In this document: in pieces, positions 36,376 through 51,926 of the stretch
How the letters are laid out: each line of letters begins with the position of its first letter
Position numbering within the stretch: the first letter of the stretch is position 1
Origin: a virus
Length of the DNA stretch: 64,000 bases
IMG/VR virus record: IMGVR_UViG_3300010048_000001
Span: 41,197 to 105,196 of that record
Direction: 5' to 3' (one strand)
Translations under genes and position numbers: made by a program
Notes under the pieces: model-generated
Told to the model about the DNA's origin: nothing
Seen by the model: only the letters and a program-made list of their open reading frames with translations
Databases searched by the model: none

Positions 36376-39300
36376 TTAGGGCGCCGTAGGGAGTCCCTCG
36401 GCGCGCCGCACCATAGGGCGAAGCTGCTCCATTTCCTTGTCTCGCGTAATATAGAACTGATCGAGAGCTCGGCGCTTAGCCTCGGCGCTTGCCCCCTGAT
36501 TCATCAGAGTTGCCTGTAACTGCTTGCGCTGCCGAGCGAGCACCATCCCGGCGCGCTGCATGGCTTTGTCGAGTTGCGGGCTATACTCTGGATGCTCCTG
36601 TCGTAACCTCTCGACAGCTTCCGCATCACCCATCTGGGAGGCTTTTTTCATGCCCTGCCCAACGATCGAAACCTCTTTCTTGAGATCGTAGAAGTCTGTT
36701 TGGATCCGGTTCGCGGCCTCAGGTCCCTCTCGGACGAAGCGGTTCAGGACAGGCGTGTCGGCGCCGCCCCATGCGGCCTGCTGCGGGAGCCAGCCAGCGC
36801 TTTCGCCGATAGCATCTGTCGCTGCCGTAATGTAGCTGGCCCAGCCGGCAACGTAGCCACGGAGCAGATGCTGCACGACTTCGGGCGAGGCTTTGACAGG
36901 GGACACAGCATTGTACGCATGCGTCAGCGCAACGATCGACGGACTGTTGAGCGGGCTGTATAGCCCGGCCGCATTCTGTGCCTCATCCGCCTCATTAACG
37001 ATAGGCCGTCCAGTGTAGCTATCGGTGTTGAAGTACGTTTCGATCGCGGGCTTAACCGCAACGGGGATCGGATTGAACTTGAACGTGTTGAGGACCATGG
37101 CCGTGAAGGCTTTCGTCAACGCCCGTGTGCTCCCAGCTTCGGTCCCGTTGAAATAGTCCAGCAGCATCTCCGGTAATGAACCCGTAAGAGCACCAACCTC
37201 GAAGGGCTTGGGAATGCGGACGTGCACGGCGTCTGGCCCGTTGCCAAGCCAGACGTGGTAGGCATATTGCCGATCCCAGTCTTCCAGCTTATCCCATTGC
37301 TCTTTATGGTTCTCTTGATTGTATTCCCAAAGCGCTATGGCAGCTCCAGCCATCAGCCCCATACGCGTCAAGACGGCATTGCGATCCTCTCCGATCAACC
37401 CTCGGCCGGTGCGGGCGAGGCCTTGCCAGCGGGCATTGAGGAACGGGATGGTCTGCGCGAGGAACATCGGGATAGCGCCATCGCCATGCGTCGAGAAGTC
37501 GAGGAGGTCTCGAGCTTGGCGCATCGCCTCCGCCTCGTCACCGGTCTTCGCCAAGATGTGCTCGTAGACAGCCGCGCGTGGCCCCAAATCAGCCGCCCGC
37601 GTCATTCCCTCGCCAATCTTTTTGACGAACCGATACCAATCGGCCGCGGTCTGTACGAGACTGTTCTGGAACTCCTTCCCCTCTATCTGTTCGCGAACGC
37701 TTCGTGGCATGTCGATGTCGTAATGCCCTGACACCGTCCCCGCCGACATCAGCTTCAACGCAATCGGATCCAGGCCGCGCGCCATCCGCACCGCCGACGT
37801 CATCGACGCGATCGGGTTTGTCCCGGTGAGCGCATAAGCATGCAGAGCCATGCGTAGATTGTGGGCAAGAGCGAAGGCTGGGTCGAACACAACCGCACCA
37901 CGCAGCAAACGGGCTGGACCAGCGAGGACACGCGTCAGCCCGTTCACGGTGCTCGGCCCAAGCGCCGCGATCGAGCGAAGCAAGAGCGGATCCTTGACCT
38001 CGCCATATTGCGGCTTGCCGTCGACCATGACCGAAACGACGTTGGGATGCTGATCGGGGTTTTTGATGGCAGCGAATAGGCCTTTGGCGGCTTCCTTCTG
38101 CTCCGCCGTCATCGTGGCCGGGTCGAGTCCCAGATCCGTGAGGAAGTCGCGCACCGCCGGATCACCGAGCTTCGCCTCAAATTCTACACGAGCCGCTTTG
38201 CTCATCGGCGTAATGGCACCCGTCATGGTTCCCATGTCGTATGTTAGCTGCATTGCGCGGTTCTTCATGCCGCGGCTGATCATCGCCGACGTGTTCATGA
38301 CCGTGTTGTCGAGGATATTATTGAAGCGAGCTTCGCCGCCCTTGAGCTCCCGGATCGGCGATCTCTGTCCGGCAATCCCCTGTCGCCCGGGCGTGACGCC
38401 TTTGGTTCCCTCGGGATCAATCGCACGGAAGAACGGCACGTAATCGTCGTGGTCAAAGAGTGTGCGGCTCTGCGGATTAATGAGCCCTGTCGCCTCGCCG
38501 AAGTTCAACAGGTTGTGGTTGTATTCCTGCAGCTCCGCGTGCGCGGCCTGGAACGGATTTGAGCCGTCGGGCTGCGCATATAGCTGGTCGAGATCCCTAT
38601 ACTTGTCGACCATCTCGGGCGTGATGTTACGCTCGCGGCCTTCGCCGAGCAGCCGCTCGCCGCGTTTGATGCTTGCCCAGAGCTGGAAATCATCGAGGGC
38701 GCTCTGCCCCATATCGGCAATCGGCTTGAGGATCTCCTGAAGCGGCTTAGCTCCTTCTATTTGTTCGACGCGCCCAGAGGTGGGATCGAAGCGCACCTGC
38801 CCGCGTTCAATAACAAAACGGCTGACTGCATGAGAATTGCGCGCGAGGCGCGCAGCCTCGGTCGGCGAGAGCGCTGCCGGCAACAGCTTGCCGCCACCGG
38901 CAATCTTTTCCTGCCTCTCAAGCCCGGCAAGGTTGTCGAGAACGTGCGCGACAGCGCCGGTCACTCCTTGGTCGCGAATCGCGGAGAGCTTCTCGCGAGT
39001 GCGATCGAGAAAGCTGCGGCGGTCGGTTCTTTGGATTGATTCTAAATCTTTGCCGCGCTCTTCCGGCGTGCCCCAGCGCCCCCCTCCGGGCGGCGAAGTA
39101 GGCGGACCGCCTCCCGGTGGCCCTGATGCGGAGAGCCCTAACTTCGGGGCTTCTGCCCCTGCAGCGACAATGCTTGCTTCGCTTCCTCGATTGCCGCCTT
39201 CACCTGTGGATCGTCCTGCGGCAATTCCTGCATGTGTTCCAGAAATTGCTGCCATTGCCTCTTTGGGGCGTAGCGCCCCGGCGGATCGATAAAGCCGATC

Positions 39301-42300
39301 ACTCGTCTCTCCCTCATCCATGCCTCGCACATCTTTTACGAGGCGGGCCTTCAGCCAGGCGGGAATATCCTTGGTGCTCACATAGTCAATCAAACCGCCC
39401 GCCGCTAGGAGCCGGTTGCGAGCTTCCCACAAAAGCTCATTCGCTCGCTCCCGCGGGAGCATGCCGCGCTTGACCAGCGGGTCGATGACCTTGGCCGCAG
39501 TCGCTTCTGCACTCGCGGCCATCTGCCTAATTTGCTCTTGCCGCTCGACCGGGTTGAGTGGCTCGAGTAATGCCCGCCCTTCTGGCGTCAACGACGCCGA
39601 TGTTATGTGGCCGTCGGAGCCTTCAGCAGTCACGCTGGCGATGCCGTGCGCGGCCAAGGACATGATGTCCGGAATAGAAAGCGGGTTCCGAGCGGCCGGA
39701 TGATTATGGTGAAAAGCGGCGGGAACCGTATCGGGGTCCCATAGGCGGCGGAGCAGACCATCTGAAAACTTAATCGCACTAGGATGACCTGAAGTGCCGG
39801 CCTCAATAATTTGGCCATCCTGTCCGACAATTGCAAAATACTCATGCCCCGAAAGAAGCCCAGCAGAGGAGACGTAATCCCTGGCCGCTTCATGTCCGCC
39901 GACAAGGTCCGGGGAATATTCTGGTGAAGCACGAAGGCCTTGTGCTTCTTCTGTCGTATTGCTCGCGCGCTTTATTCCGGCGTAGGGGTTCTCGCCTGGC
40001 CCCGTCGATTCCCAGCCCCGCGGGTTTGCAGCCAAGCCCTCCTCACGCCCGCGCTGCATCTCGACGACCGGCCGGCGATTGCCCATGATGGCACTGAGCA
40101 CCTCGGCAGCCCGCTCGCCGGTCGGGATAAAGAAGCGCGTCTGATAGCCAATGCGCTCAACAAACGCTCCGCTGTTTTCGAGCTCCGGCCGATCCCGATA
40201 ATCCGGCCCGGTCAGCTCGAGTCGCGGCTCGCCGGCGACGGTAGCGCGACGGATCGTCCACCCGTTTGCCAACGTTGCCCGATCGCCGTCCAGCACGCGC
40301 TGGGCGACCTCGGCCGGCTCATATGTCTTGCCGGCGGTCTCAGCGCCCAGCGAGCGCAGGACCTGCCCGATGTGATCCTCGTCGACGACTCGGCCAAGCA
40401 TCCGTTCGCCGTCGGCCGTCTGTAGCCGGTAGACCTTCGGCGTCCCTGACAGCCGGTCCCAGATTGGCAGTATCGACCCTGTTATCAGGTGCTGGGTTTT
40501 GGCGCTGTATTCCGGGATCGTCGCAAGCTGCTTGTCCCATAGATCGCGAGCCTGCGCTTCGTCGCGGACGAGCTCCCAATTCCTATCGGCCAGCGGCCCG
40601 TCGATATTTCGGCGCGCGGCATATTGCCAATCGAGCGGTCCGGCCAGCCGGTAATTCTCCGTTACGGCTCCGGTGTTCGGGTCCGTAGTGTTGCTTGCCT
40701 CGGCAACCGCAAAGACCTTCCCGGTGCGTTTCGAGATCGCGTAGAACAGAGGCTTTCGCCCCGAGAGATTGCGTTGGCCGGCCGCGATCTGATCGAAAGT
40801 CGCGGGGTGATTTTTGTTCTCGACCTTCAATCGAACATACTTGGTTTCCGCACCCGACTGCGGATCCTTGTAAATCGGCTGGTCGGCTTCCTTGGTTATC
40901 CGATCGCCCTTCAGCGTCTCAGTCCCGACATCGAGGGTCCCAGCTGCGGCAGCGCTGTCGACCGCATCGTTGAGACGATCCTCGAACTCGCCAAAGACTT
41001 TGTTCTGCATGTCGAACTTCAGCGACAGCAGACGATTGAGAAACTGGGTGATCTCCGGGGGATCGGTCGGATTGCCGTTCTCATCTTTGAGTCGCAAGCC
41101 GGTCTGCGCCTCGAAGTCAGCCGGCTCGATTGTGCCGATTTCACCGCGGCGCATCGATCCCCAGAAAGAGCGCAACGCCGCGGACGCTTCCGGACTTTCA
41201 AGGTTGTCCCGAGCGCTAAAGAGTCCCTGCTCGCCGGCCCGGCGCTCGCCCTTCGTGAGCGCGCCAAGCTGCGAGAGCCGGCGGGCAATCGAGGAGATAA
41301 AGCGCCGTTGCCCCTGTAGATCGGTCGTCACGAGATGGAAGATCGGAGCCGACGCCTGGTTCGTTCGGTGCGTGCGTCCAAACCCTTGGATGGCCTTGTC
41401 CGCGCGCCAGCCGGCTTGCACCAGATAGTGTGAGCGCTGTGCATTCGAGCTCGGCGCCGTCAGGTCTGCATGATAGCTACGCCCGGTGCCGCCGGCCTGA
41501 GAGAAGACGAGGATCGGCTTTTTAGCGTTCTGAAAAGCATCCGTCTCAGCCGCATTCGAATCGCCCGGCCGTGACTCTAATGTCGCCCGTGTGACCCCTT
41601 TCTCATCGGGCTTGTGCACAACGCGCTGCTTGCGGCCTGTCACCTCGGCAACCCTGTCGGTCCCGAAATGGTTCAGCAGCATTTCCAGCGGCCCGTGCGG
41701 CACCCGGATGCTGCCCAGTTTGTCGAGCAGCTCGTCGCGCATCCGCACCGCTTCGGGATTCTCGACGATGTTCCCCTGACTGTCCTTGACGACCTGCCAG
41801 CGCTCGTTGCCGTTCTCGTCGATATATTTCTCCCACTGGGCTACCGGGAACGATTTCTCGACCATTTGCATCAACTGGTCGCGCGGCGTGAGGTCAAGAT
41901 CCTCGAGGTCCTCCGGAGCTTCCTCGGCTCCCCCTTTTACTCTCTCGATCGCCCGTTTCTGCGATGCCTCATTGGTATTGACCAGCTGCAGAACGGCCTG
42001 CTGGCCTTCCTTCAGGTCTCCCTCGATGGCCCTCAGGACCGATGGCATCTGCATCGCGGTAATAATCTGGTTGAAGAACCGCTGATGCCCGGACCAGAAG
42101 GCGCTCATCGCCGCCATGCGTGCTCTTGGCGAGGCCTGTGGCTCTCCAGTGCGGCCTCCCGGCTCCCCGGTAATCCCGAGAGCGGCGTTGATATTCTTCA
42201 AGACGGTCTGCCAGGCACCGGCAAGCTCATCGTAATTCTCGCGCTGCTCCGGCGTCAGCTGGTGTTCGAGGCGGTCATATTTGACGTCGTCGTAGCTGAG

Positions 42301-45300
42301 GTTCCGCGACACATAGGAACCCATCGCCTTCATGTCGCGCGCCACGAGCTCCATCGCCGCGATGCCGCCAGAGCCGATGTTCTGAATGAAGGATTGCTTG
42401 CTCGGGAAAGCCGTGCCGCGGCCCCAAAGCCCTAGCCGCTCCGCATAGGCGAGGTTCGAAACTTCCGTGGCACCGGTGGCCGAGACATAGACGACGCGTG
42501 CGTTTGGCAACTTCTGTTGGAGTTCGATGCCGGCGAGCGCCTTCGCTGCAGCCTCTTTGGTCCCGCGGCTTCCTTTTTGCGCAACGCTATTGGCGAGATT
42601 GTGACTGTTATGGACTAGGAGACCATTGGCAAAATAGTTCGCCGTGCCGGTTTCTACGTTGAATACCTCGACAGAGCGACTGCATCTATCTCTGCCACAA
42701 CCAGTTCGACTTCCTTGAGGATGCGGGAATTCTCGAACCGCAGAACCACCCACCCAAGATTCTCTAGATATGCGGTTTTCCGCGCATCGCTTTGCTGACG
42801 TGCCGCGGCCTTGTGGCTGTGGCCGTCTACTTCTATAGCAATCCTCAGGACAGGATTCGCAATATCGATCCGGTAGCAGCGCGGGTACCCTTCGCGGACT
42901 GGCTTGACGCCCACTGGGAATTCCGGCTCCCACCTGAGATGCCCGAGCAATAATGCCTGTGCCGGAGGCATTGGCTTCCCATTCCCGCCACGCCCGCTCT
43001 TGGCTGGGTTCCCTATATGTCGCTTCGCGTAATCCATATTGTGAAACGGGTTCCGCTCTGAGGACAGATATCCCGCCAATGACTCCTGATATTGCTCCGT
43101 CCGTCTCGTTTTGTTCAGTCGAACTCGGGCAGCTTGATCGAACGCCGCGCGGCGCTCTTCGCTCATGCGTGATCTTACCGAACCCATCCTGGCGGCAGTG
43201 GCTTGCGCAGTGCATGACCTGCTGCAATAGAGATTTTTGTTGTGCGGGTATTTGACCGGGAATTCCCTCCCGCAGTTTTCGCATATATGTGTGTTTGCCA
43301 TCTTGTGATAGATAGCGAATGCGATCGTTCTCGTCAATCCAAACCGCTGGAACATACCCCGAATCTTCGGTCCAGACCGGGTGGTTCCCCGTCATAATGA
43401 CGGGTCCGATAACATGGAGGTGAGCGCGGGTTGCCCGGGTGAAAGTGCGCTTCACACTTGTCGGGACCACCCGGTTTTCTGCGTGATCAAATCCCAAGAC
43501 ACAATCGCCAACCTCCAACGATTCGATGGGCCGCGATCCATTAGGCGTAGCGATCAGGGTGCCGGCTGGCACACATTCATCAAATGCGATAACCCCATCA
43601 AAGTCAGGCCCAAGCCAGTTGGCCAGCTGATCGATCCGGCGTTTGCCTTGAAGTGTCTTGCCTGTCTTCTCGTCTTTCCCAAGACGCTCGCCACCCTTCA
43701 ATGTGTCATAGGTCGTGAAAGCAATCCCCCGGTCTGCCGTCAGATCGTTCCCGGCTTTCACCTTGCCCAGATTGAAGATCTCTTTCGGATCGCGGCCGAG
43801 CCCCTTCCAGTCGCGCTGTGCATCCTCGATCAGCGTTTTGTTCTCACTGATCCACAATGCCTTTTTCTTACCTTGCATGTAATTATCAAGTATAATACCG
43901 GCAACTTGCCTCCCTTTTCCAGTGCCCGTGCCGTCGCCGAGAAAGAAACCACGACGAAATGGCGTCTCCCCGGCAATGGCCGGAAGTATTTGTGAGTGGG
44001 CATTACCTGCGTATGTTATCGCCTCTAGTTGAGCGTCAGACAGAGCGCCGCTAGATATTAACTCATTAGGCAACCGCGGCGCATAATCAACGCGCGGCGG
44101 CATGACAGAAGCCAGCGCCGCGGTCTGTACCAGCGCGCCAGGATGCGCCTGCGATCCCTCTATCTGGATACGCTGCGGCCGGTATGGCTCGTAGACCGCT
44201 TCGGTGACCTCGCCGTGCGAGCCTGCCGGATCGGCAACGACTTCGTCGACCTTGGCCGCTTCGGGAAGCGGTTCGCCCGCTTCTACCCCTGATGACTCGC
44301 CGCCGGCCGGTAATACGGATCCTGCCCCGCCTTCAGGTCGTAGAACCACTCCATGAGGCTCTGGGCCGCCTCCTCCCACGACCTCGCCTGTTCCAGGAGC
44401 GACAGCAGTGTTTGGCTCTGCTCCGCCCAACTCGGGCCCTGCGGGTTGCTCTGGAACCAGCGCATTACCTTCACCGGGTCGAGACTCGGGTCGTAGAGCT
44501 CCGACGCCGCCTGGCTCAACTCCGCCCGGTACTGCTGGCCCTGCCCCGGGAGGAACAGGCTCGACTGGAACCCGAGGTTCAGGAGTTGGACCAGATACGG
44601 GGAGTGTGGGTCCGGGGGCTGGTTCGCTTGGCGCAACCACCGCTGGGCCGCCTGGTTCACCGGCCACTGGTTCACTGGGAGCCCGTTGTTCCGTAGGAGT
44701 TGTGGGTTGCCGATCATTTCTCACCTCATCGAGGCGCTGCATAAGATCTGGGAGTGAACTGGCTTCGCCCAATACTGGTGGGCGGCCGGACGGCGGATTC
44801 TTGTCGATGACCAGAAGCCTGGTCCCGAAATTCGTACCGTATTTGCTATAGATGCTGCCCGGCACCCCCATGTTGGCGCGGACCTCGAACGACCCGGACA
44901 TACGCCGCCACCACGGTGCGAAGGTCGACGAGTCCATACCCATCCCGCGGCCGACAATCGCCACAAGCCGGCCGCCGGGCTCGAGCCGCTTCATCGCCTC
45001 CTCGATGTGCCGGGCCCCGGTCATCAATACTTTCTTGTCGCCCATGCGCCCGGCCGTCTGAGAGAACGGCGGGTTCATCAGCACGACACTCGGGCGCACC
45101 TCCGGTGGCAGGATGTTGTGTAACTGTTCAGCATTCTCATGGTAACCGCGTGTAACGCCGAGTGACTCGACATTTGCGGCTCGCGGCAGGAAGAGCTCGT
45201 TTGTCGTGATCTCGCGCGGGTACGCGTTCTTCGCCATCGCGACCAAGCTGCCATTGCCGGCACTCGGCTCGAGGACATGATCCTCTGGCGTAATGTTGGC

Positions 45301-48000
45301 CATCCAAGCCGCGGCGTAGCTGTAGTCTGGCGGCGTGCTGAATTGCTGGAAACGATCCTTCTCGCCGGCGCGCACCGTCTGCGTCGGGAGGAGTTTCTTC
45401 ATTGCCTCTAACTGACCAACGATATCCGTCGCAGCCGGCAGAGCTTCTCGTGGATTAATCCCTCCCGGGCGTCTGGTGACCCATTGATTAACGCCGAGTT
45501 CAAGTGCGTCATAAAGTTGATCGCGGGTAAATTTCTTTTCGGCAAGCGTCCCGCCAAAAGATTTCTCGGCCATCGCCTGAAGATCTTTCGGGCTTAACGC
45601 CTTGTTACGATTTCGAGCGTCTTCGAGCGCCTCTGTTACCTGATCGGCCAGCTGGAACGGCGGCGTCTTCTCGCCCGGCTGAGCCGCGGCCGAGGCCGGA
45701 TTCAGCTTCTCCGGCTCCGTCAGGGAGAATGACGATTGCCCGATCGGGTTCTTGAGATCCCCCTCGCGCACCCACGTCTTGATCTCGTCGAGCGACATCG
45801 GCGTGACATTGCCGACGCGGTCCGGCCCGGTTCCATCTGAAAACAAATCGGCGAAAGCGTTCTTGGCCTCATCTACATTCCGGTAGCCGAGCATGACGCG
45901 ATGCCCGTCGAATGCTCCGGTCTCGGGATGCGCCTGGTCTATCACGAACGCGTGATGGCTCTCCGGGTTGGGTCCTAGAGAGGTCGCGACTTGGTTGCCA
46001 CCTTCGGTGATCCTGCCCTGATCTACCGGGTTCGCGTTCCCCTCGGCGTCTGCGGCACCCTCGGGGAAGTCCATCGTAAAGTCGAGGCCGTGGAAGTCGA
46101 CCTTGCCTTCTCCCGGCTCAGCGTAGCGTGCATCTCGTATTTCTCGCCCGACCTCGAGCGGATCGCGCGGGTTTGACGCTCTCGGCGGCGGGGTGGGCTC
46201 TTCGGCTGGGGCCGCTATCGGCGCTGTTGGTTCCGGCGCTACGACTGGGGTGCTTGGCGGCGCCTCGGGAGCAGCCGGCGGCGGCGGAGCGGTGGCCGCT
46301 TCAGGCCTAGCGATTTCAGGCGGCGGAACAACAACTGGGGGCGGCGGCGCGACAGCCTCTACCGGGGGCGGGACAGGCTGGGTCGGGGTTGGCGGTGGCA
46401 CGGGAGCCGCCGGCGTAGAAGAAATCTCTGTCAGTTTGTCCCGAGCCTCTTGGGCCGCAACGTCCTCTGGACCGATTGTCGGCTGCGGCGTGGGCTCCAT
46501 CGGCTTCGCCGTGGCTGTCGCGACTTGCTCCGCTTTGGCACTCTCGACAGCTTCTGGGGGCACGGTGGCGACTGGCGGCGGGGGGATAGTAGCGGTCACC
46601 GGGGGAACTTCAGGTGGCGACGGCGCGGGAGCTGGTGTCACGAGTGTTGGCTCGGCGGGCGGAAACTCCGGCGCTGCGGCAGTCGCGGCCGGAGCCTCGC
46701 CGGCCGGAGGCACTTCGGTAAGCGTATCTACAGCCGGAGTAGCCGTCGCGGGGCGTTCTGGGGAGCCGGCAAGATGGCTGATCGCAGCATGCCCTACCAA
46801 TGGCAACGCTGTTCCAACAATGGCACCGGGGATTTCTGCGGCGACACCCTCACCGGCGGGCTTGCCCTCGACGATATTCTCCGCAGCACGTCCCGCTGCC
46901 GACACCGCAGGCTGCACCCCGAACGCCTGGAAGAGCATGTTCTTGATAGTGCTGGCGAACGGCTGAACACCGAACAGCCCCCAGCCTACGGCCCCGATCG
47001 CTCCACTCGCGACGCTGCGCTTTATTGCCGTGTCGAAAGCCGCATCAGGATCGCTTGGGTTCTCCTTCATCGCGGCTGCGAATTGCGGACCAATCGACTG
47101 CACGGTGCTGCCCAACCATGCGCCTGCAGCGCCGCCCACCATGCCACCGACTGGGCCAGCCAGTGCTGTTCCGGCCGCCCCGCCGACGATGCCGGCGGCA
47201 GCTGTCGGATAGCTTTTGGCTAGCTGATATTCTGCCTTCCGGGCCAGCAGCCCCGGACTGGCAAAGTCTTTCCACTCAACCGGCTGCGCCTCCGGGATTG
47301 TTTCGGCTTCTGGTTCCGGCGCCTTGGCGTGGCCCTTTAGGGCTGCCTCCGCCTGCTCGCCCATCGCGAGCTCTTTAGTGCCGGCTTTTAGGCCGGCGAG
47401 AGCGGTTCCTACCCAGCCAGTAGAGGGCGGCGGCGGGGGCTGCTCAAGAGGTTTGAGGCTCGAAAAGTCGAGGGGTTTCAACTGTGAAAAATCAAGCGAC
47501 GGAGGAGCTGGCTGTTCTTCAGCCGGCTTAAGAGACGAAAAATCGAGGCCTGCCGAGCCCCCCGTTTGTAATGCTATCGTCCCGCCGTCAGCATGCTTCT
47601 CAATCGGCTCTTGTGCGTTACAGCACGCGTGCCGACTCACCTTAGTGTTAAGGTCGAAAGTCTCCGGAGCCTTTTTGTTCAGAGAGGCGTAAAGCCCACA
47701 CGTTTCTGGCTCATCAAAGAACCGACAGTGCTCACAACGCACCGCACGTTTAACAAGGCCCGCCTCCTTAGGTGTCCAGGATTTTGTGATCGGCTGATCA
47801 TCGCTCGGGGTCCCAAACGCGTACCCACCACATGACCACCCAGCGAGGACATGCTCGCCATCCATCGGCGCGCACTTCTCCTTGCCCGGCATGAAGAAAC
47901 GACACGACTCGCACTGCGCGAATTTCTCTGGATCCCCCTTGGGATCCATGTAGAGAAACGCATCGCGCGTGACTTTTTTGGCTTCGCCGTCGAATGGCAT
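36376..48000 (-). CDS. Giant polyvalent DarB-like ejected protein (3874 aa): two HiPIP-like units, InPase-like domain, N6-MTase, strawberry-notch helicase with intein, JAB-like domain, LPD38-like domain
   Basis: MTase FSTP/LEPSAGNG/MNPPF (about 44790-45400); helicase GDGTGTGKGRQ, FDE^SH, YVSATG, QGFGRTHRTNQ; HHNHP..S..D (about 39700); IPKPFEVG (about 37200). Confidence 0.9.
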   Translation of the reverse strand: MPFDGEAKKVTRDAFLYMDPKGDPEKFAQCESCRFFMPGKEKCAPMDGEHVLAGWSCGGYAFGTPSDDQPITKSWTPKEAGLVKRAVRCEHCRFFDEPETCGLYASLNKKAPETFDLNTKVSRHACCNAQEPIEKHADGGTIALQTGGSAGLDFSSLKPAEEQPAPPSLDFSQLKPLDFSSLKPLEQPPPPPSTGWVGTALAGLKAGTKELAMGEQAEAALKGHAKAPEPEAETIPEAQPVEWKDFASPGLLARKAEYQLAKSYPTAAAGIVGGAAGTALAGPVGGMVGGAAGAWLGSTVQSIGPQFAAAMKENPSDPDAAFDTAIKRSVASGAIGAVGWGLFGVQPFASTIKNMLFQAFGVQPAVSAAGRAAENIVEGKPAGEGVAAEIPGAIVGTALPLVGHAAISHLAGSPERPATATPAVDTLTEVPPAGEAPAATAAAPEFPPAEPTLVTPAPAPSPPEVPPVTATIPPPPVATVPPEAVESAKAEQVATATAKPMEPTPQPTIGPEDVAAQEARDKLTEISSTPAAPVPPPTPTQPVPPPVEAVAPPPPVVVPPPEIARPEAATAPPPPAAPEAPPSTPVVAPEPTAPIAAPAEEPTPPPRASNPRDPLEVGREIRDARYAEPGEGKVDFHGLDFTMDFPEGAADAEGNANPVDQGRITEGGNQVATSLGPNPESHHAFVIDQAHPETGAFDGHRVMLGYRNVDEAKNAFADLFSDGTGPDRVGNVTPMSLDEIKTWVREGDLKNPIGQSSFSLTEPEKLNPASAAAQPGEKTPPFQLADQVTEALEDARNRNKALSPKDLQAMAEKSFGGTLAEKKFTRDQLYDALELGVNQWVTRRPGGINPREALPAATDIVGQLEAMKKLLPTQTVRAGEKDRFQQFSTPPDYSYAAAWMANITPEDHVLEPSAGNGSLVAMAKNAYPREITTNELFLPRAANVESLGVTRGYHENAEQLHNILPPEVRPSVVLMNPPFSQTAGRMGDKKVLMTGARHIEEAMKRLEPGGRLVAIVGRGMGMDSSTFAPWWRRMSGSFEVRANMGVPGSIYSKYGTNFGTRLLVIDKNPPSGRPPVLGEASSLPDLMQRLDEVRNDRQPTTPTEQRAPSEPVAGEPGGPAVVAPSEPAPGPTLPVSGPTPEPRVPVEPVPPGAGPAVPGGVEPGGVGALRPESRPGEGNALVPEQPAGPELGGAEPNTAVAPGTGEVVGGGGPEPHGVVLRPEGGAGSVLPAGGESSGVEAGEPLPEAAKVDEVVADPAGSHGEVTEAVYEPYRPQRIQIEGSQAHPGALVQTAALASVMPPRVDYAPRLPNELISSGALSDAQLEAITYAGNAHSQILPAIAGETPFRRGFFLGDGTGTGKGRQVAGIILDNYMQGKKKALWISENKTLIEDAQRDWKGLGRDPKEIFNLGKVKAGNDLTADRGIAFTTYDTLKGGERLGKDEKTGKTLQGKRRIDQLANWLGPDFDGVIAFDECVPAGTLIATPNGSRPIESLEVGDCVLGFDHAENRVVPTSVKRTFTRATRAHLHVIGPVIMTGNHPVWTEDSGYVPAVWIDENDRIRYLSQDGKHTYMRKLREGIPGQIPAQQKSLLQQVMHCASHCRQDGFGKITHERRAPRGVRSSCPSSTEQNETDGAISGVIGGISVLRAEPVSQYGLREATYREPSQERAWREWEANASGTGIIARASQVGAGIPSGRQASPRRVPALLPDRYCESCPEDCYRSRRPQPQGRGTSAKRCAENRISRESWVGGSAVREFPHPQGSRTGCGRDRCSRSVEVFNVETGTANYFANGLLVHNSHNLANSVAQKGSRGTKEAAAKALAGIELQQKLPNARVVYVSATGATEVSNLAYAERLGLWGRGTAFPSKQSFIQNIGSGGIAAMELVARDMKAMGSYVSRNLSYDDVKYDRLEHQLTPEQRENYDELAGAWQTVLKNINAALGITGEPGGRTGEPQASPRARMAAMSAFWSGHQRFFNQIITAMQMPSVLRAIEGDLKEGQQAVLQLVNTNEASQKRAIERVKGGAEEAPEDLEDLDLTPRDQLMQMVEKSFPVAQWEKYIDENGNERWQVVKDSQGNIVENPEAVRMRDELLDKLGSIRVPHGPLEMLLNHFGTDRVAEVTGRKQRVVHKPDEKGVTRATLESRPGDSNAAETDAFQNAKKPILVFSQAGGTGRSYHADLTAPSSNAQRSHYLVQAGWRADKAIQGFGRTHRTNQASAPIFHLVTTDLQGQRRFISSIARRLSQLGALTKGERRAGEQGLFSARDNLESPEASAALRSFWGSMRRGEIGTIEPADFEAQTGLRLKDENGNPTDPPEITQFLNRLLSLKFDMQNKVFGEFEDRLNDAVDSAAAAGTLDVGTETLKGDRITKEADQPIYKDPQSGAETKYVRLKVENKNHPATFDQIAAGQRNLSGRKPLFYAISKRTGKVFAVAEASNTTDPNTGAVTENYRLAGPLDWQYAARRNIDGPLADRNWELVRDEAQARDLWDKQLATIPEYSAKTQHLITGSILPIWDRLSGTPKVYRLQTADGERMLGRVVDEDHIGQVLRSLGAETAGKTYEPAEVAQRVLDGDRATLANGWTIRRATVAGEPRLELTGPDYRDRPELENSGAFVERIGYQTRFFIPTGERAAEVLSAIMGNRRPVVEMQRGREEGLAANPRGWESTGPGENPYAGIKRASNTTEEAQGLRASPEYSPDLVGGHEAARDYVSSAGLLSGHEYFAIVGQDGQIIEAGTSGHPSAIKFSDGLLRRLWDPDTVPAAFHHNHPAARNPLSIPDIMSLAAHGIASVTAEGSDGHITSASLTPEGRALLEPLNPVERQEQIRQMAASAEATAAKVIDPLVKRGMLPRERANELLWEARNRLLAAGGLIDYVSTKDIPAWLKARLVKDVRGMDEGETSDRLYRSAGALRPKEAMAAISGTHAGIAAGRSTGEGGNRGSEASIVAAGAEAPKLGLSASGPPGGGPPTSPPGGGRWGTPEERGKDLESIQRTDRRSFLDRTREKLSAIRDQGVTGAVAHVLDNLAGLERQEKIAGGGKLLPAALSPTEAARLARNSHAVSRFVIERGQVRFDPTSGRVEQIEGAKPLQEILKPIADMGQSALDDFQLWASIKRGERLLGEGRERNITPEMVDKYRDLDQLYAQPDGSNPFQAAHAELQEYNHNLLNFGEATGLINPQSRTLFDHDDYVPFFRAIDPEGTKGVTPGRQGIAGQRSPIRELKGGEARFNNILDNTVMNTSAMISRGMKNRAMQLTYDMGTMTGAITPMSKAARVEFEAKLGDPAVRDFLTDLGLDPATMTAEQKEAAKGLFAAIKNPDQHPNVVSVMVDGKPQYGEVKDPLLLRSIAALGPSTVNGLTRVLAGPARLLRGAVVFDPAFALAHNLRMALHAYALTGTNPIASMTSAVRMARGLDPIALKLMSAGTVSGHYDIDMPRSVREQIEGKEFQNSLVQTAADWYRFVKKIGEGMTRAADLGPRAAVYEHILAKTGDEAEAMRQARDLLDFSTHGDGAIPMFLAQTIPFLNARWQGLARTGRGLIGEDRNAVLTRMGLMAGAAIALWEYNQENHKEQWDKLEDWDRQYAYHVWLGNGPDAVHVRIPKPFEVGALTGSLPEMLLDYFNGTEAGSTRALTKAFTAMVLNTFKFNPIPVAVKPAIETYFNTDSYTGRPIVNEADEAQNAAGLYSPLNSPSIVALTHAYNAVSPVKASPEVVQHLLRGYVAGWASYITAATDAIGESAGWLPQQAAWGGADTPVLNRFVREGPEAANRIQTDFYDLKKEVSIVGQGMKKASQMGDAEAVERLRQEHPEYSPQLDKAMQRAGMVLARQRKQLQATLMNQGASAEAKRRALDQFYITRDKEMEQLRPMVRRAEGLPTAP
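39138..39302 (-). CDS. Nested +1-frame ORF (54 aa) overprinted in the linker after the JAB-like domain
   Basis: GAGGGAG 6 nt before GTG; MIGFIDPPGRYAPKRQWQQFLEHMQELPQDDPQVKAAIEEAKQAL looks like an amphipathic helical hairpin. Confidence 0.6.
   Translation of the reverse strand: MIGFIDPPGRYAPKRQWQQFLEHMQELPQDDPQVKAAIEEAKQALSLQGQKPRS
42654..43301 (-). CDS. DUF559/Vsr-like endonuclease encoded in the +1 frame inside the intein
   Basis: CENCG..YCSRSC zinc finger; YRIDIA....IAIEVDGHSH.......DARKT.YL..LGW.VLRF.N. Confidence 0.85.
   Translation of the reverse strand: MANTHICENCGREFPVKYPHNKNLYCSRSCTAQATAARMGSVRSRMSEERRAAFDQAARVRLNKTRRTEQYQESLAGYLSSERNPFHNMDYAKRHIGNPAKSGRGGNGKPMPPAQALLLGHLRWEPEFPVGVKPVREGYPRCYRIDIANPVLRIAIEVDGHSHKAAARQQSDARKTAYLENLGWVVLRFENSRILKEVELVVAEIDAVALSRYST
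43309..43337 (-). promoter_or_regulatory. Putative internal promoter for a leaderless endonuclease mRNA
   Basis: TTGACG-17nt-TATCTA-7nt-ATG(43301); no SD. Confidence 0.5.
44283..44717 (-). CDS. Nested +1-frame ORF (144 aa) overprinted in the MTase-helicase linker
   Basis: TGAGGTGA SD directly upstream of ATG; Trp/Tyr/Leu-rich helical protein, while the main frame is low-complexity P/G/E. Confidence 0.7.
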   Translation of the reverse strand: MIGNPQLLRNNGLPVNQWPVNQAAQRWLRQANQPPDPHSPYLVQLLNLGFQSSLFLPGQGQQYRAELSQAASELYDPSLDPVKVMRWFQSNPQGPSWAEQSQTLLSLLEQARSWEEAAQSLMEWFYDLKAGQDPYYRPAASHQG

Positions 48001-51000
48001 TACGGTTTAACCATCAGGCCGTTAGGCGTCTGAATGATGCTGCCCGCCGGGGCGTTATCGATGTCAGCCTGCGTCTTGGGAACCAGAGGATTGGTGCGGG
48101 TCCATTGTTGTGGTGCCGGTGAGGAGGTGCCTGCTGCGGGAGCCGTTCCACCCGGCCTGCCATACTCACCTTCCGCCTGCCTCATAAAATCCGGGACCTG
48201 TTCGCCGGGTGACGCGCCGAATGGATGGCTTAATTCGTACTGCTTCTGAAGGAACGTAGCCCGGTCCTTGATCTGGGTTTCGCGGTTAGCGGGCGTCTGC
48301 TCGTGCTTTGCCGTTGGATAGAACCCCTGCTCCTTGCCGTCCGGCCCAAGCAGCAACGTGCCGGATTGCCCGTCCTTCACAACGTCCTGGACCTGTATGG
48401 GACGCTGATTCTGTTTAGCCGATTCCCGTAGCTGTTCCAGAGCAGCGTGGTGAGCCTCTGTCTCGTCTAGCCCACGCTTCCGTAGATCAAGGATCGCGCC
48501 CTGATAGGACGCCGTCAGATCCAATTTCTGCTGAGCTTGTCCCAGCTTCTCCTCACCAAACTGCTGTTGCTGAGCGAGTTTCGCGCGATTGAAGTCCGCC
48601 AGGTCCGCCATGCGGGCGGCAGCTTGCTGCGCTGTCTGCATACGCGCTTCCGCAACCTCGCCGCTCTGTCGGGTGTGCTCTTGCTGCTGTCCGTATTTAA
48701 GCCCGGTTTCTAGCCCCTCGCCGAGGGCTACGCCAGGGAACGGAGAGCGTGAAGAGAGCATCCCAGCGCCGATCGCAATCGGGATCATCCAGGGACTCTG
48801 CAGGAAATCGGAGCCTTTGGGCTCTCCGGATTGAGGCGGCGCTGCGGGCGGATTAGCTAATCCCGCTTGGCCCGAATCACTAATAAGCCCGCTGGAACGC
48901 TCGTACCGCCCACCCATCGTCGGGATCATCATCCCGGTCTTGGTAGTTCCCAGCCCTCTTTCAAGATGATCCCCAGAATCCGCCGGTCGCTCGAAATATT
49001 TCTTCCAGAGACCATTCGCCGCCTCTCGTGTGGGAGCGCTCTTGATCTCGTTCCAGTGCTGCGTGGCAACGGGGTCGCCGCCTGTAACCTGCGAAAGAGC
49101 CCACGCGTGTTGCACGTTGGGATCTTGCCAATTCGGATGCTGCTGTAAATTAGCTGCACGATCCAGATGAGCTTGATACAGCCCTACGCTGGGACCGCCC
49201 TTATCGGCGCTAACGTTAGTCGGATCGAAACCGCTCTCTCTCTGGACATTATCCGCAATTCCCTGCGCGACATGCTCAGGAACTCCGGCATTTTTCATCC
49301 ACCAGTTGACTGTCTGCTCCCGGTTCTCAGTTGGGGGAGTTGGCGGCGGCGCCGAGGCTATGCTCCCAGTGGGGGCCGAAATATCGACCTTGCCAAGATC
49401 GAGGCCCTGGCTTGCCGGCGCGCCGAGTCCAGATGCCAATGTAGGCGGCGGACGCGTAGGATCATCGACACTGCCACCAAGCTGCATGCCGCCCCAGAGC
49501 TGCTGGTCGAGCATATAATTGAGCGCCGGCGGCACACCTCCACCATCCTGCATCGGAGAAGCACTGGCGGTCGGTTGCGACGGCTGCCCGAACTGCGGTT
49601 GCTGCAACGCGATCCCGGCACCCGGCGTCATCTCTTTTGCCTGGATCGCCCGCTGAATCAGCGCACCTTGCTGGGTATTCGGCGGGAACCGCACGGCGAG
49701 TTCGCGCAATTGCTCGAGTGAACGCTGCGTCAGACCCTGGTAAAATCCCTGCGTGTTCGGCGTCGTTCCGGACAGCGGCGCCGCCGCAGTCAACGGCGAC
49801 ACCGCGCCACCGACCTGCAACATGCGCCGGCCGAGGCCGCCGGGATGCTGACTCAGCCCATGGCCAAGCCCGATCTCGTGCATAGAGCCGAGACCCCTGC
49901 CAAAATGGCTGCCGCTTATCCCGGGCAGATGTGCTATGCGACCGCCGAGTTGATTTCCTACAGGCGATGTGTTCACTCCGGGAGTGTCGAAGACACCGAG
50001 GCCCTTCATGGAATTGAGGGTTTGAAAGAATTGAAGGGGCGACATCCCACTGGAAGATAAAGTTTGTGGGCTGGACATTGGCGGCTTCGGCGGGCCCGGG
50101 CCATTAGTGCTGCCCGGCATCGTAATATAGCTGCCAATTTGCGGAACGCCTGGAGATGCCCCAAGGCCAGGCTGAGAGGCGCCATATCCTGGCACTAGCC
50201 CGCCAGCTTGCCGTTTCGCCACACCGCCGCCTCGATCAAACAGCGCAAACGGCGCTGCCCCAGCGAATGCATCGCCGAAGCCATTCAGAGCTCCCGCCTC
50301 CCCTGCCGAGAGAGCCCCAGACCCAAAAAGGGATCCCAGCCCGCTAGTCAGCCAGCCATTCGCTCCGAACCCTCCGGTCGCGCCAATGATACCGGTACCG
50401 GCCAGCCCAAGGCCGGCAATCTGGCTCACCGGGCTGGGGCCCGGATAGCTCGTGGAGCCCGACCCGCCGGCCAGCGCTCCCGTGCCCTCGGTGATGCCCG
50501 AGAGCCAATTCAGCTGTTGGTACGGATAGGCTTGCTGCTGGATGAACTGCTCATAGGGGATATTGAGCTCTTGCTGCGCTTGAGCTTGTTCCTGCCCGCC
50601 TTCCGTATTCAGCGCGCTCGCTAATCCCAGCCTCTCGTTCTGTGCGGTTTGTCCAAGATTACCCAAACCGAATGCGGCCTGTGAATTGAGCCAATCGGTC
50701 GCTTGCTCAGCTGATAGTTGCGTTTGCTGCTGAGTATTAAACTCGCCCAGCTGCTGCTGCCCGATGCCGGCCAATGCTTGGGCTGCGCCAAGGCTGAGTT
50801 GCCCCTGGGTTCCAAGGGCTCCCGCCTCCGCCTGCGCCGCACCGAGAGACTGCTGGCCTGCGCCGAGAGAGATCTGCCCGGCTCCGAGACCGAGCTGCCC
50901 CTGCCCTTGCAAAGCCCCGGAGGTCAGCTGACCCGCGCCGAGCGCGGCCTGTGCAGCACCCAAGCCCAGCTGACCTTGAGTGCCCATTGCGCCAGACACA

Positions 51001-51926
51001 AGCTGCCCAGCGCCAAGCCCGAGCGTCCCTTGAATCTGGGCTTGTTGCTGGGCAAGTTGCTGCTCAGCATTAAGTTCTTGCTGTGCCTGCGCAAACCCTT
51101 GTTGCTGAATGCCGGCGAGGACCGGCGCCTGGGCAAGCTGCTGCTGGCGGGCCGTTAGTGCTTGGGCAACTGCTTGGCGGTCGCCGCCGAACGCTCCCGC
51201 AGCTGCGGCATTGCCGGCAACTTGAGATTGCTGCTCCGCGTTCTGCTCGTTGAAGAGTGCTTGGGTAGCACTCGTGACGGCCGACTGATATGGATTGAAA
51301 TACGTGCCGAGATCGGCATAAGTCGGCGTATTCCCTGGAAGGCCAGTTGCCGCATTGCTGGCGATGCCGGCATAAGGCGAAATTGCCCCCGCGATATTCT
51401 GTCCTGCCGCACCAAGTCCGAGACCCGTAGCAAGCGCACTCGATGGCGCTACCGCGCCGGCGATATTCGTATTTGCCGCACCAAGTCCGAGACCCTGTGC
51501 TGTCGACGCATAAGAGCCCTGCTGGCCCAAATAAGGCGAAATCGCCCCCGAAATATTCTGCGGAGCGCCTTGTGCTAGCTCCCCCGCGCCTAGTAAATTG
51601 CTGCCGCCCCAACTGGCATATTGGCCGGCATCTATCTGAGGAATCGACGGCCATAAAGGCTGCGTGGCATTATTAAAAGCTTGGATGGCTTCAGCATTCA
51701 CCCCTGCTGTGGGATCGTTCCGCGCCATAGCCTGGACTATGCCCTGAGCGTTAAGTTGATCAGGACTAAAAGGCGCTACCAGTTGCCCAGAGTATTGTTG
51801 TAGCGGCTGAGCTGCCTGATTCTGCGCTTGGGTTGTTAAGTTAGTATAAGCATTCAGCCACTGTTGAGGCGGCTGTGAATTCTGAACTACAGTATTTGTT
51901 GATGGAGCGGGAGAACTCTTGCCCAT
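48000..51926 (-). CDS. Internal virion/DNA ejection protein with lysozyme-like domain
   Basis: Q/G/A-rich; YFNPY, AGAFGG and LGLGAGQ repeats; AQGIADNVQRESGFDP..SVGLYQ tail-lysozyme motif. Confidence 0.8.
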   Translation of the reverse strand: MGKSSPAPSTNTVVQNSQPPQQWLNAYTNLTTQAQNQAAQPLQQYSGQLVAPFSPDQLNAQGIVQAMARNDPTAGVNAEAIQAFNNATQPLWPSIPQIDAGQYASWGGSNLLGAGELAQGAPQNISGAISPYLGQQGSYASTAQGLGLGAANTNIAGAVAPSSALATGLGLGAAGQNIAGAISPYAGIASNAATGLPGNTPTYADLGTYFNPYQSAVTSATQALFNEQNAEQQSQVAGNAAAAGAFGGDRQAVAQALTARQQQLAQAPVLAGIQQQGFAQAQQELNAEQQLAQQQAQIQGTLGLGAGQLVSGAMGTQGQLGLGAAQAALGAGQLTSGALQGQGQLGLGAGQISLGAGQQSLGAAQAEAGALGTQGQLSLGAAQALAGIGQQQLGEFNTQQQTQLSAEQATDWLNSQAAFGLGNLGQTAQNERLGLASALNTEGGQEQAQAQQELNIPYEQFIQQQAYPYQQLNWLSGITEGTGALAGGSGSTSYPGPSPVSQIAGLGLAGTGIIGATGGFGANGWLTSGLGSLFGSGALSAGEAGALNGFGDAFAGAAPFALFDRGGGVAKRQAGGLVPGYGASQPGLGASPGVPQIGSYITMPGSTNGPGPPKPPMSSPQTLSSSGMSPLQFFQTLNSMKGLGVFDTPGVNTSPVGNQLGGRIAHLPGISGSHFGRGLGSMHEIGLGHGLSQHPGGLGRRMLQVGGAVSPLTAAAPLSGTTPNTQGFYQGLTQRSLEQLRELAVRFPPNTQQGALIQRAIQAKEMTPGAGIALQQPQFGQPSQPTASASPMQDGGGVPPALNYMLDQQLWGGMQLGGSVDDPTRPPPTLASGLGAPASQGLDLGKVDISAPTGSIASAPPPTPPTENREQTVNWWMKNAGVPEHVAQGIADNVQRESGFDPTNVSADKGGPSVGLYQAHLDRAANLQQHPNWQDPNVQHAWALSQVTGGDPVATQHWNEIKSAPTREAANGLWKKYFERPADSGDHLERGLGTTKTGMMIPTMGGRYERSSGLISDSGQAGLANPPAAPPQSGEPKGSDFLQSPWMIPIAIGAGMLSSRSPFPGVALGEGLETGLKYGQQQEHTRQSGEVAEARMQTAQQAAARMADLADFNRAKLAQQQQFGEEKLGQAQQKLDLTASYQGAILDLRKRGLDETEAHHAALEQLRESAKQNQRPIQVQDVVKDGQSGTLLLGPDGKEQGFYPTAKHEQTPANRETQIKDRATFLQKQYELSHPFGASPGEQVPDFMRQAEGEYGRPGGTAPAAGTSSPAPQQWTRTNPLVPKTQADIDNAPAGSIIQTPNGLMVKP

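What the first reader, a model, noticed from the sequence alone, without database searches (positions are those of the whole stretch)
42607..43575. Intein whose endonuclease is encoded out of frame with its own leaderless promoter
Seen: the splicing blocks are in frame 0, but the intein middle (about 215 aa) looks like non-functional filler in that frame and is kept stop-free. The +1 frame encodes a zinc finger plus DUF559/Vsr-like nuclease that ends just before block F. TTGACG-17-TATCTA-7-ATG lies upstream within the intein. Established: typical inteins carry in-frame LAGLIDADG or HNH domains. I recall that alternate-frame intein nucleases have been noted in a few phages, so novelty needs checking. 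Inference: separate transcription uncouples homing (early, during replication) from late expression of the virion host gene.
Basis: partly seen in the sequence, partly recalled or inferred. Interest (0 to 1): 0.85.

Follow-up and report, generated by a model that had tools for sequence, protein, structure and literature searches.

The report
Intein with overlapping out-of-frame homing endonuclease
A self-splicing protein insert (intein) in a soil phage's giant helicase-containing protein also encodes, one base out of step, a complete DNA-cutting "homing" enzyme; the double coding is real and kept by selection, but it is one member of a large, mostly unannotated phage family whose general layout was already described in 2025-26 preprints.

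Summary
Window 42607-43575 (-) is a 323-aa class-1 intein, cleanly inserted at helicase motif II (FDE|SHN) of a 3874-aa phage polyvalent protein. Residues about 102-298 in the host frame are stop-free, unstructured filler. The +1 frame holds an intact zinc-ribbon plus DUF559/Vsr-like (EDxHD) endonuclease (42654-43355). Synonymous recoding of the nuclease predicts about 10 stops in the host frame; none is seen (0 of 20,000 shuffles).

About 25 metagenomic loci and cultured phages (Pseudomonas MR14, Vibrio CP-T1, Corynebacterium phi673) share the layout. The nuclease is always +1 and is not annotated in the four GenBank records inspected. This excludes sequencing error. All 13 homologous polyvalent proteins retrieved lack the intein, which suggests recent invasion.

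The "leaderless promoter" is not supported. Its -10 hexamer matches 3 of 6, equally loose sites occur about 0.56 per kb per strand, and many relatives have ribosome-binding sites instead.

Out-of-frame or antisense intein endonucleases are published (Gorbalenya 1998 as cited; Gosselin et al. 2025 preprint; a 2026 dnaX preprint). I did not find the sense +1 Vsr-like version there. This scan has met the same layout many times on other DNA (82 earlier notes). Verdict: a new variant of a known kind, of moderate interest.

The parts
36376..48000 (-). Host gene: a 3874-aa polyvalent protein with pyrophosphatase-like, methyltransferase, strawberry-notch-type helicase (AAA_34 / Helicase_C_4) and LPD38 domains
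   Evidence: ORF list; Pfam
42607..43575 (-). Class-1 intein, 323 aa: Cys1, block B TGNH, terminal HN, +1 Ser. Inserted between FDE and SHN of helicase motif II
   Evidence: All 13 retrieved homologues read FDE|(S/A)H without any insert
43273..43575 (-). N-terminal Hint part, intein residues 1-101 (blocks A and B)
   Evidence: Hint_2 match; AF2 pLDDT 74-98; conservation periodicity follows the host frame
42682..43272 (-). Host-frame linker, intein residues 102-298: stop-free, Arg/Ser/Gly-rich, predicted disordered. Its DNA is read productively in the +1 frame
   Evidence: AF2 pLDDT about 40; 0 stops against 10.5 expected; the least conserved codon position is host position 1, which is nuclease position 3
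42607..42681 (-). C-terminal Hint part (blocks F and G, ...VFNVETGTANYFANGLLVHN)
   Evidence: TIGR01443; AF2 pLDDT about 96; periodicity back in the host frame
42654..43355 (-). +1-frame ORF for the homing endonuclease. It is 233 aa from the first ATG, or 215 aa from ATG 43301, the start that is homologous to relatives. TAG stop at 42654-42656
   Evidence: start-codon comparison; AF2 pLDDT 86
43212..43283 (-). Zinc ribbon (CxxC ... CxxxC) of the nuclease, followed by long helices and an NPxH motif; presumed DNA-binding region
   Evidence: Four Cys conserved in at least 90% of 22 relatives; AF2 strands and helices
42657..42995 (-). EDxHD / Vsr-like (DUF559) catalytic domain, with motifs RGGNG, CYRIDIA, IEVDGHSH, D..K and GWVVLRFEN. 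All family-invariant residues are present
   Evidence: Pfam DUF559; PDB sequence hit 3HRL, E 4e-10; Foldseek top hits 3HRL, 3R3P (I-Bth0305I) and Vsr; invariant columns
43299..43337 (-).
   Evidence: Present in the sequence, but not reported by the consensus scan and no rarer than chance matches

Best explanation
A mobile class-1 intein has recently invaded helicase motif II (FDE|SHN) of this phage's giant polyvalent protein. Ribosomes read the host frame straight through the intein. Its first ~100 and last ~25 residues form the Hint splicing fold. The ~197 residues between are a disordered linker, constrained only to contain no stop codon. The same DNA, read one base later, encodes a separate 215-233 aa homing endonuclease with an N-terminal zinc ribbon, helices, and a C-terminal EDxHD/Vsr-like (DUF559) nuclease domain. 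This protein is translated on its own, most likely from ATG 43301. It presumably cuts intein-free alleles of the helicase motif in co-infecting phage DNA, so that repair copies the intein and nuclease as one unit. Shown here: the anatomy, selection for two open frames, the switch of amino-acid constraint between frames, the fold assignments, the sporadic distribution, and recurrence of the layout. Inferred: splicing activity, nuclease activity and target, and how and when the nuclease is expressed.
For: Intein boundaries and motifs are established. The +1 ORF is DUF559 and gives a confident model (pLDDT 86). The nearest structures are the DUF559 protein 3HRL, the I-Bth0305I catalytic domain 3R3P, and Vsr. 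Every invariant residue of 22 relatives is present. The host frame has 0 stops against 10.5 expected, and against 14.6 and 24 in two low-GC relatives, with 0 of 20,000 shuffles stop-free in each case. Nucleotide conservation by codon position follows the host frame in the Hint parts (0.47/0.53/0.29 and 0.63/0.69/0.36). In the middle it follows the nuclease frame (host positions 0.34/0.49/0.48). The host-frame middle is predicted disordered. The same layout, always with the nuclease at +1, occurs in 22 of the 38 metagenomic and MAG loci examined, with GC from 0.27 to 0.66. It also occurs in the four GenBank phages inspected (MR14, CP-T1, phi673, Vibrio 159E43-1b), where only the helicase is annotated. 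All 13 homologous polyvalent proteins are intein-free, with FDE|SHN contiguous. An independent Logan contig of a soil metagenome, possibly from the source sample, matches with no indel.
Against: There are no expression, splicing or cleavage data for this uncultured phage. No close relative of this particular intein exists (at most about 33% identity), so purifying selection on this copy cannot be measured directly. Its nuclease sits on a long branch (1.31 against a median of 0.51), which could mean some relaxation of constraint. Neither candidate ATG has a recognisable ribosome-binding site. The Foldseek E-values are modest (4e-3 to 5e-3), although probability is 1.00.
Confidence: 0.85

Rival explanations
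1. This is a sequencing or assembly artefact. The nuclease is really an in-frame intein domain, and two compensating indel errors shifted it.
For: The record is a metagenomic assembly. In-frame versions of this nuclease do exist in other inteins (L025 and L028).
Against: The same +1 layout is seen in more than 20 independent assemblies and in isolate phage genomes. Artefactual shifts would not leave the host frame stop-free (0 of 20,000 shuffles). A separately assembled Logan contig matches with no indel at depth about 10, though it may come from the same sample.
Confidence: 0.01
2. The +1 ORF is a decaying relic. The element is now effectively a mini-intein with a junk linker, and the nuclease is no longer made or active.
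For: The nuclease branch is long. There is no ribosome-binding site before either ATG. Degenerate derivatives exist elsewhere: L035 has lost most of the nuclease while keeping the host frame open.
Against: The ORF is intact over 233 codons. All invariant and nearly all near-invariant family residues are present, and the fold is confident. The intein is absent from all 13 retrieved extein homologues, including one at 71% identity, which points to recent nuclease-driven invasion.
Confidence: 0.1
3. The nuclease has its own internal leaderless promoter (TTGACG-17-TATCTA-7-ATG). It is transcribed separately and earlier than the late host gene.
For: The string exists with correct geometry for a transcript starting at the ATG. 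ATG 43301 is the homologous start and lacks a ribosome-binding site. The start region is AT-rich (GC 0.40) and among the 15% least structured windows of the gene. The host gene lies in a block with tail-fibre-like genes, so late expression is plausible.
Against: The -10 hexamer matches only 3 of 6 and lacks the conserved last T. The consensus scan does not report it. Equally loose sites occur 72 times in the window. It is not conserved: many relatives carry Shine-Dalgarno-like sequences before the homologous start. The host and its promoter type are unknown, and no RNA run is available.
Confidence: 0.15
4. The nuclease is produced by programmed ribosomal frameshifting from the host frame, as a fusion to the N-extein and Hint N part, rather than by independent initiation.
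For: The nuclease is invariably in the +1 frame.
Against: In the +1 frame a stop lies only 4-30 codons upstream of a start codon. In many relatives that start codon has its own Shine-Dalgarno sequence. I saw no shared slippery or shift-prone motif in these upstream regions, though no dedicated motif search was run. The constant +1 phase is explained more simply by common descent of the intein and nuclease as one unit; neither alternative frame is consistently easier to keep open.
Confidence: 0.03

Closest known systems
Non-canonical actinobacteriophage inteins (Gosselin, Arsenault and Gogarten, bioRxiv 10.1101/2025.01.02.630785)
   Same: These are contiguous inteins whose homing endonuclease is encoded in a reading frame other than that of the extein and splicing domain. 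The host-frame product of that region has no recognisable structure. The endonucleases are related to free-standing phage genes, and there is evidence of continuing transfer.
   Different: That survey reports antisense LAGLIDADG, antisense VSR-like and frame-3 endonuclease-VII-like genes in DNA polymerase, capsid, terminase and thymidylate synthase. Here a VSR-like gene lies on the sense strand in the +1 frame. It carries a zinc ribbon, sits at helicase motif II, and occurs in phages of many hosts.
Cyanobacterial dnaX intein with an out-of-frame homing endonuclease (bioRxiv 10.64898/2026.09.14.751524; Gorbalenya 1998 as cited by Gosselin et al.)
   Same: The intein's endonuclease is outside the intein's own frame.
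   Different: The host gene (dnaX) and lineage differ. The preprint could not be read here. Term counts show it mentions LAGLIDADG but not DUF559, Vsr, EDxHD or HNH, so the nuclease is probably of another family.
Fractured genes: split inteins with a free-standing Vsr-like endonuclease gene between the halves (Dassa et al. 2009, PMC2677866)
   Same: The same nuclease family sits at the same position within the intein. The nuclease 3' end overlaps the C-terminal intein coding region, and the setting is mainly phage.
   Different: In fractured genes the host gene is broken into two ORFs and the intein is split and trans-splicing. Here the host frame runs uninterrupted through the nuclease gene, so the intein is contiguous. 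In 2009 that paper stated that Vsr-like nucleases were not known inside inteins.
I-Bth0305I, the EDxHD homing endonuclease of a phage recA group I intron (Taylor et al. 2011, PMC3239194; PDB 3R3P)
   Same: The catalytic fold and motif are shared. 3R3P is the second-best structural match.
   Different: I-Bth0305I is intron-encoded rather than overprinted on an intein. Sequence identity is only about 19-20%, and the N-terminal DNA-binding region differs.
ShiLan-type out-of-frame HNH insertion in phage methylases (Arsenault et al., Genes 2025, PMC11855218)
   Same: A hidden endonuclease ORF lies in another frame of an insertion that stays stop-free in the host frame.
   Different: That insertion has no splicing domain, carries an HNH nuclease, and uses the third frame.

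Membership tests
Class-1 intein (Hint domain) | N-terminal Cys/Ser nucleophile, block B TxxH, and C-terminal His-Asn followed by Cys/Ser/Thr | tested here: met
   Cys1, T62-G-N-H65, H322-N323 | Ser; the same positions are conserved in 19 relatives
Class-1 intein (Hint domain) | Hint fold or profile match | tested here: met
   Pfam Hint_2, E 9e-8, above its cut-off; TIGR01443, 16.7 bits against a cut-off of 15.6; AF2 pLDDT 74-98 for residues 1-100 and about 96 for 301-323
Class-1 intein (Hint domain) | Precise in-frame insertion relative to intein-free homologues | tested here: met
   13 homologous proteins read ...DGVIAFDE|(S/A)H... with nothing between
Class-1 intein (Hint domain) | Protein splicing activity | not testable with these tools
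   Needs expression of a precursor and detection of ligated exteins
EDxHD / Vsr-like (DUF559) homing endonucleases | Profile match and conserved catalytic residues (E, D, H, D/K of the EVDGxxH...D..K core) | tested here: met
   DUF559, E 3e-13. D146, E157, D159, H163, D172 and K175 are present in this copy; all but D159 (at least 90% conserved) are invariant in 22 relatives
EDxHD / Vsr-like (DUF559) homing endonucleases | Vsr-type restriction-endonuclease-like fold | tested here: met
   Foldseek hits: 3HRL (TM 0.69 on target), 3R3P I-Bth0305I (0.65), and 1VSR/1CW0 lower down. Probability is 1.00 but E is only 4e-3 to 5e-3
EDxHD / Vsr-like (DUF559) homing endonucleases | Site-specific cleavage of the element-free allele | not testable with these tools
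   Needs purified protein and the joined FDE|SHN target
Non-canonical inteins with an endonuclease gene in another frame or strand | An endonuclease ORF overlaps the intein's endonuclease-insertion region in a different frame while the host frame stays open | tested here: met
Non-canonical inteins with an endonuclease gene in another frame or strand | Independent expression of the overlapping ORF | not testable with these tools
   No RNA run holds this DNA. Shine-Dalgarno-like sequences precede the start in many relatives but not in this window
Fractured genes (split intein plus free-standing endonuclease gene) | Host gene broken into two ORFs, with a stop after the N-intein half and a new start for the C-intein half | tested here: not met
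   A single uninterrupted 3874-codon ORF

The most novel reading that the evidence does not exclude
The sense-strand +1 overprint may be a selected design rather than an accident of insertion. It would let the nuclease be made from its own internal start, and possibly its own transcript, at a time and dose independent of a giant, probably late, virion-associated host protein. It would also lock the nuclease gene to the host: frameshifts and many nonsense changes would also destroy the host frame. At the C-terminal end, the same nucleotides encode both a Hint beta-strand (RVxSIxV) and the nuclease GWxVLRFxN motif.
Probability: 0.2. Interest if true: 0.6.

Novelty: new variant of a known kind. 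Interest (0 to 1): 0.42.

Why it matters
Gene callers keep only the long host ORF, so these endonuclease genes are invisible. A word-indexed search of a 5.8-billion-protein database found no relative of the nuclease, and it is unannotated in the four cultured-phage records inspected. Recognising the layout corrects phage annotation and explains 'inteins with no recognisable endonuclease'.

The same nuclease clade was found in three states: free-standing next to helicase genes, in-frame inside an intein, and overprinted at +1. Together with the fractured genes described in the literature, this gives a series for how inteins acquire endonucleases.

This phage also offers a clean natural test case. 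It carries one invaded allele, against 13 intein-free homologues with the exact target sequence.

Tried and rejected
- A word-indexed homologue search with the nuclease protein found nothing at similar lengths. This probably reflects gene calling rather than rarity.
- The 2026 dnaX preprint and Gorbalenya 1998 could not be opened. I only probed the preprint's vocabulary by term counts.
- No RNA holder is listed for this DNA, so nothing can be said about expression. The one DNA holder is Logan contigs from a soil metagenome that may be the source sample, so the identical contig is weak independent support.
- The PDB sequence search found 3HRL but not I-Bth0305I. That link rests on fold comparison alone.
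- The nuclease-domain tree separates the intein-associated clade from ordinary bacterial DUF559 (100/99). It does not resolve the order of free-standing, in-frame and +1 forms, nor place the window's copy.
- My crude gene calls suggest few Shine-Dalgarno sites in this phage (10 of 46). Start-codon choice was unrefined, so I draw no conclusion about host translation signals.
- Local mRNA folding at the two candidate ATGs is only mildly weak (15-19th percentile), which is not decisive.
- No direct dN/dS was possible for this copy, because no close relative exists.

Full report
**What is there**

The window comes from a 105-kb IMG/VR virus record with direct terminal repeats, rated complete. Its only public holder found is a soil metagenome.

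A single 3874-codon ORF runs from 48000 to 36376 on the minus strand. Pfam finds a pyrophosphatase-like domain, a methyltransferase, a strawberry-notch-type helicase (AAA_34, E 1e-109; Helicase_C_4, E 3e-81) and LPD38. This is the 'polyvalent protein' type of phages and conjugative elements. The gene lies in a minus-strand block with tail-fibre-like genes.

**The intein**

- Translation of 42607-43575 (-) gives 323 residues. It starts with Cys directly after FDE, contains TGNH (block B), and ends LLVHN before Ser.
- It matches Hint_2 above the Pfam cut-off and the intein C-terminal model.
- I searched viral contigs with the C-extein and retrieved 13 homologous proteins at 48-71% identity. Every one reads ...DGVIAFDE|(S/A)H... 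with nothing in between.
- The insert is therefore precise, in frame and sporadic, as expected of a recently acquired mobile intein.

**The two frames**

The +1 frame holds a 233-codon ORF (43355-42654) with a CxxC...CxxxC zinc ribbon and a DUF559 domain (E 3e-13). Its TAG stop falls inside the first codons of block F.

- I held the nuclease protein fixed and redrew synonymous codons from the host gene's usage. The host frame should then carry 10.5 stops, but it carries none, and 0 of 20,000 shuffles were stop-free. Two low-GC relatives give the same result, with 14.6 and 24 stops expected.
- AlphaFold, run with a 19-sequence alignment, models host-frame residues 1-100 and 301-323 confidently. 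Residues 102-298 score about 40 pLDDT.
- The nuclease frame gives a confident model (mean pLDDT 86). Its best structural matches are the DUF559 protein 3HRL, the catalytic domain of the homing endonuclease I-Bth0305I (3R3P), and Vsr.
- All residues invariant in 22 relatives are present in this copy, including the acidic, His and Lys positions of the EVDGxSH...D..K core.

**Which frame is under amino-acid selection**

Mean pairwise nucleotide identity across the family, by host-frame codon position 1/2/3:

| Region | Position 1 | Position 2 | Position 3 |
|---|---|---|---|
| Hint N part | 0.47 | 0.53 | 0.29 |
| Middle (linker) | 0.34 | 0.49 | 0.48 |
| Blocks F/G | 0.63 | 0.69 | 0.36 |

- In the Hint parts the third position is free, as in a normal coding frame.
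- In the middle the free position is host position 1, which is the nuclease's third position.
- Amino-acid constraint therefore jumps from the host frame to the nuclease frame and back. In the middle the host frame is constrained only to stay open.
- Just before block F, both readings are conserved over the same bases: the Hint strand RVxSIxV and the nuclease motif GWxVLRFxN.

**Not an artefact, and not a one-off**

- A profile of three nucleases retrieved 24 viral and 20 genomic loci. I examined 38 of them.
- In 22 of these a long helicase ORF stays open right through the nuclease ORF, at GC contents from 0.27 to 0.66. They include MAG contigs of Dehalococcoidia, Anaerolineae and Polyangiaceae. 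The nuclease is always +1 relative to the host.
- In all 18 complete inteins the insert sits at motif II, directly after DE or after DExHR.
- tblastn against GenBank phages found 40 records, mostly Vibrio phages, plus Pseudomonas phage MR14 and Corynebacterium phage phi673.
- In the four records I opened, the match is +1 inside an uninterrupted 'helicase' CDS. The intact 215-250 aa nuclease ORF is not annotated.
- A separately assembled contig of the soil run matches the window over 42300-43900 with no indel, though it may derive from the same sample.
- Two compensating sequencing errors are therefore excluded.

**Other states of the same nuclease clade**

- L011 and L015 carry it as a free-standing gene whose end overlaps the start of a helicase gene. 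L023 is also free-standing, next to an unidentified gene.
- L025 and L028 carry the catalytic part in frame inside an intein of a UvrD-like helicase.
- L035 is a derivative of L033 that has lost most of the nuclease but keeps the host frame open.
- A tree of the catalytic domain separates this intein-associated clade from ordinary bacterial DUF559 (100/99). It does not resolve the order of the states or place the window's long-branched copy.
- Neither alternative frame is consistently easier to keep open. The constant +1 phase is therefore best read as descent of the intein and nuclease as one unit.
- The window's intein is closest to those of L006, L030 and L032 (about 30-33% identity). These sit in 776- to 1059-codon helicase ORFs with different flanking extein sequence. 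The unit has therefore apparently moved between distinct helicase genes through the shared DExH site.

**How the nuclease is expressed**

- In relatives, a start codon lies 5-9 codons before the CxxC. In many of them it is preceded by a good Shine-Dalgarno sequence, for example AAGGAG, AGGAGG or GAGGAGG. This points to independent initiation.
- In the window the homologous start is ATG 43301 (MANTHICENC...). It has no such sequence.
- Sites equally loose occur 72 times in the window, and the motif is not conserved.
- The start region is AT-rich and only mildly unstructured.
- I treat a separate leaderless transcript as possible (about 15%) but unsupported. The early/late uncoupling idea is untested.

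**Comparison with what is known**

- Dassa et al. 2009 described Vsr-like endonuclease genes standing free between the halves of split inteins ('fractured genes'). They noted that this nuclease type was not known inside inteins.
- Taylor et al. 2011 characterised the family (EDxHD, I-Bth0305I).
- Gosselin, Arsenault and Gogarten (preprint, 2025 version) reported actinophage inteins whose endonuclease lies outside the intein frame. Their types are antisense LAGLIDADG, antisense VSR-like, and frame-3 endonuclease-VII-like. They cite Gorbalenya 1998 for the antisense LAGLIDADG of the Synechocystis dnaX intein.
- A September 2026 preprint is titled as reporting an out-of-frame endonuclease in cyanobacterial dnaX inteins. 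I could not open it.
- The principle is therefore published. I did not find this particular form in the texts I could read: a sense-strand +1 zinc-ribbon/Vsr-like gene at helicase motif II, widespread across phages of many hosts, and here inside a polyvalent protein.
- This scan's own notebook holds 82 earlier notes of the same layout in at least 63 other genomes. I used those notes only as a lead to the Gosselin preprint, which I then read.

**Verdict**

This is a new variant of a recently described kind, of moderate interest. It is mainly useful for annotation and as a tractable model of how inteins acquire endonucleases.

Noticed in passing
L054-L066 (viral contigs), match start about 3501 in each: Thirteen homologues of the polyvalent protein's helicase domain (48-71% identity) all lack the intein. 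They carry the uninterrupted FDE|(S/A)H site. L054 reads FDE|SHNLANS, exactly as the window's joined exteins would.
   Followed up: yes
L050 (Pseudomonas phage MR14), L051 (Vibrio phage CP-T1), L052 (Corynebacterium phage phi673), L053 (Vibrio phage 159E43-1b): Cultured, published phage genomes carry the same intein with an intact +1 nuclease ORF of 215-250 aa inside the annotated helicase CDS. The nuclease ORF is not annotated in any of the four records.
   Followed up: yes
L025:1286-3787 and L028:1277-3787: The catalytic part of the same nuclease clade, without the zinc ribbon, lies in frame inside an intein of a UvrD-like helicase (TDEC|...HN|CQD). This is a classical in-frame Vsr-like intein endonuclease.
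   Followed up: partly
L011:1513-2148, L015:2198-2827, L023:2210-2851: These are free-standing members of the same nuclease clade. In L011 and L015 the gene ends overlapping the start codon of a helicase gene that has no intein.
   Followed up: partly
L035:2441-2869 compared with L033:793-1632 (same Polyangiaceae MAG): L035 is a deletion derivative. Most of the nuclease, from the zinc ribbon to the catalytic core, is gone, yet the host frame is still open and the Hint blocks are intact. This is a snapshot of endonuclease loss on the way to a mini-intein.
   Followed up: partly
L030 and L031 (one Dehalococcoidia MAG contig, about 37 kb apart, opposite orientation): Two helicase genes with different N-terminal sequences carry identical intein-plus-nuclease units. 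This is either a recent duplication or homing between paralogues within one genome.
   Followed up: no
window 42690-42720 (-), and alignment A3 columns 396-412: Just before block F the same nucleotides encode a conserved Hint beta-strand (RVxSIxV) in the host frame and the nuclease motif GWxVLRFxN in the +1 frame. Both readings are conserved across the family. The window's own copy (WVGGSAVRE) departs from the Hint consensus.
   Followed up: partly
window about 46200-46800 (-): The N-terminal third of the polyvalent protein has a long Pro/Ala-rich low-complexity stretch (PPPP, APPP repeats). It coincides with a local GC peak of about 0.70.
   Followed up: no
window 48000-51926 (-): A 1308-aa ORF with no Pfam match ends exactly where the polyvalent gene starts (shared base 48000). 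This suggests translational coupling of two very large genes.
   Followed up: no
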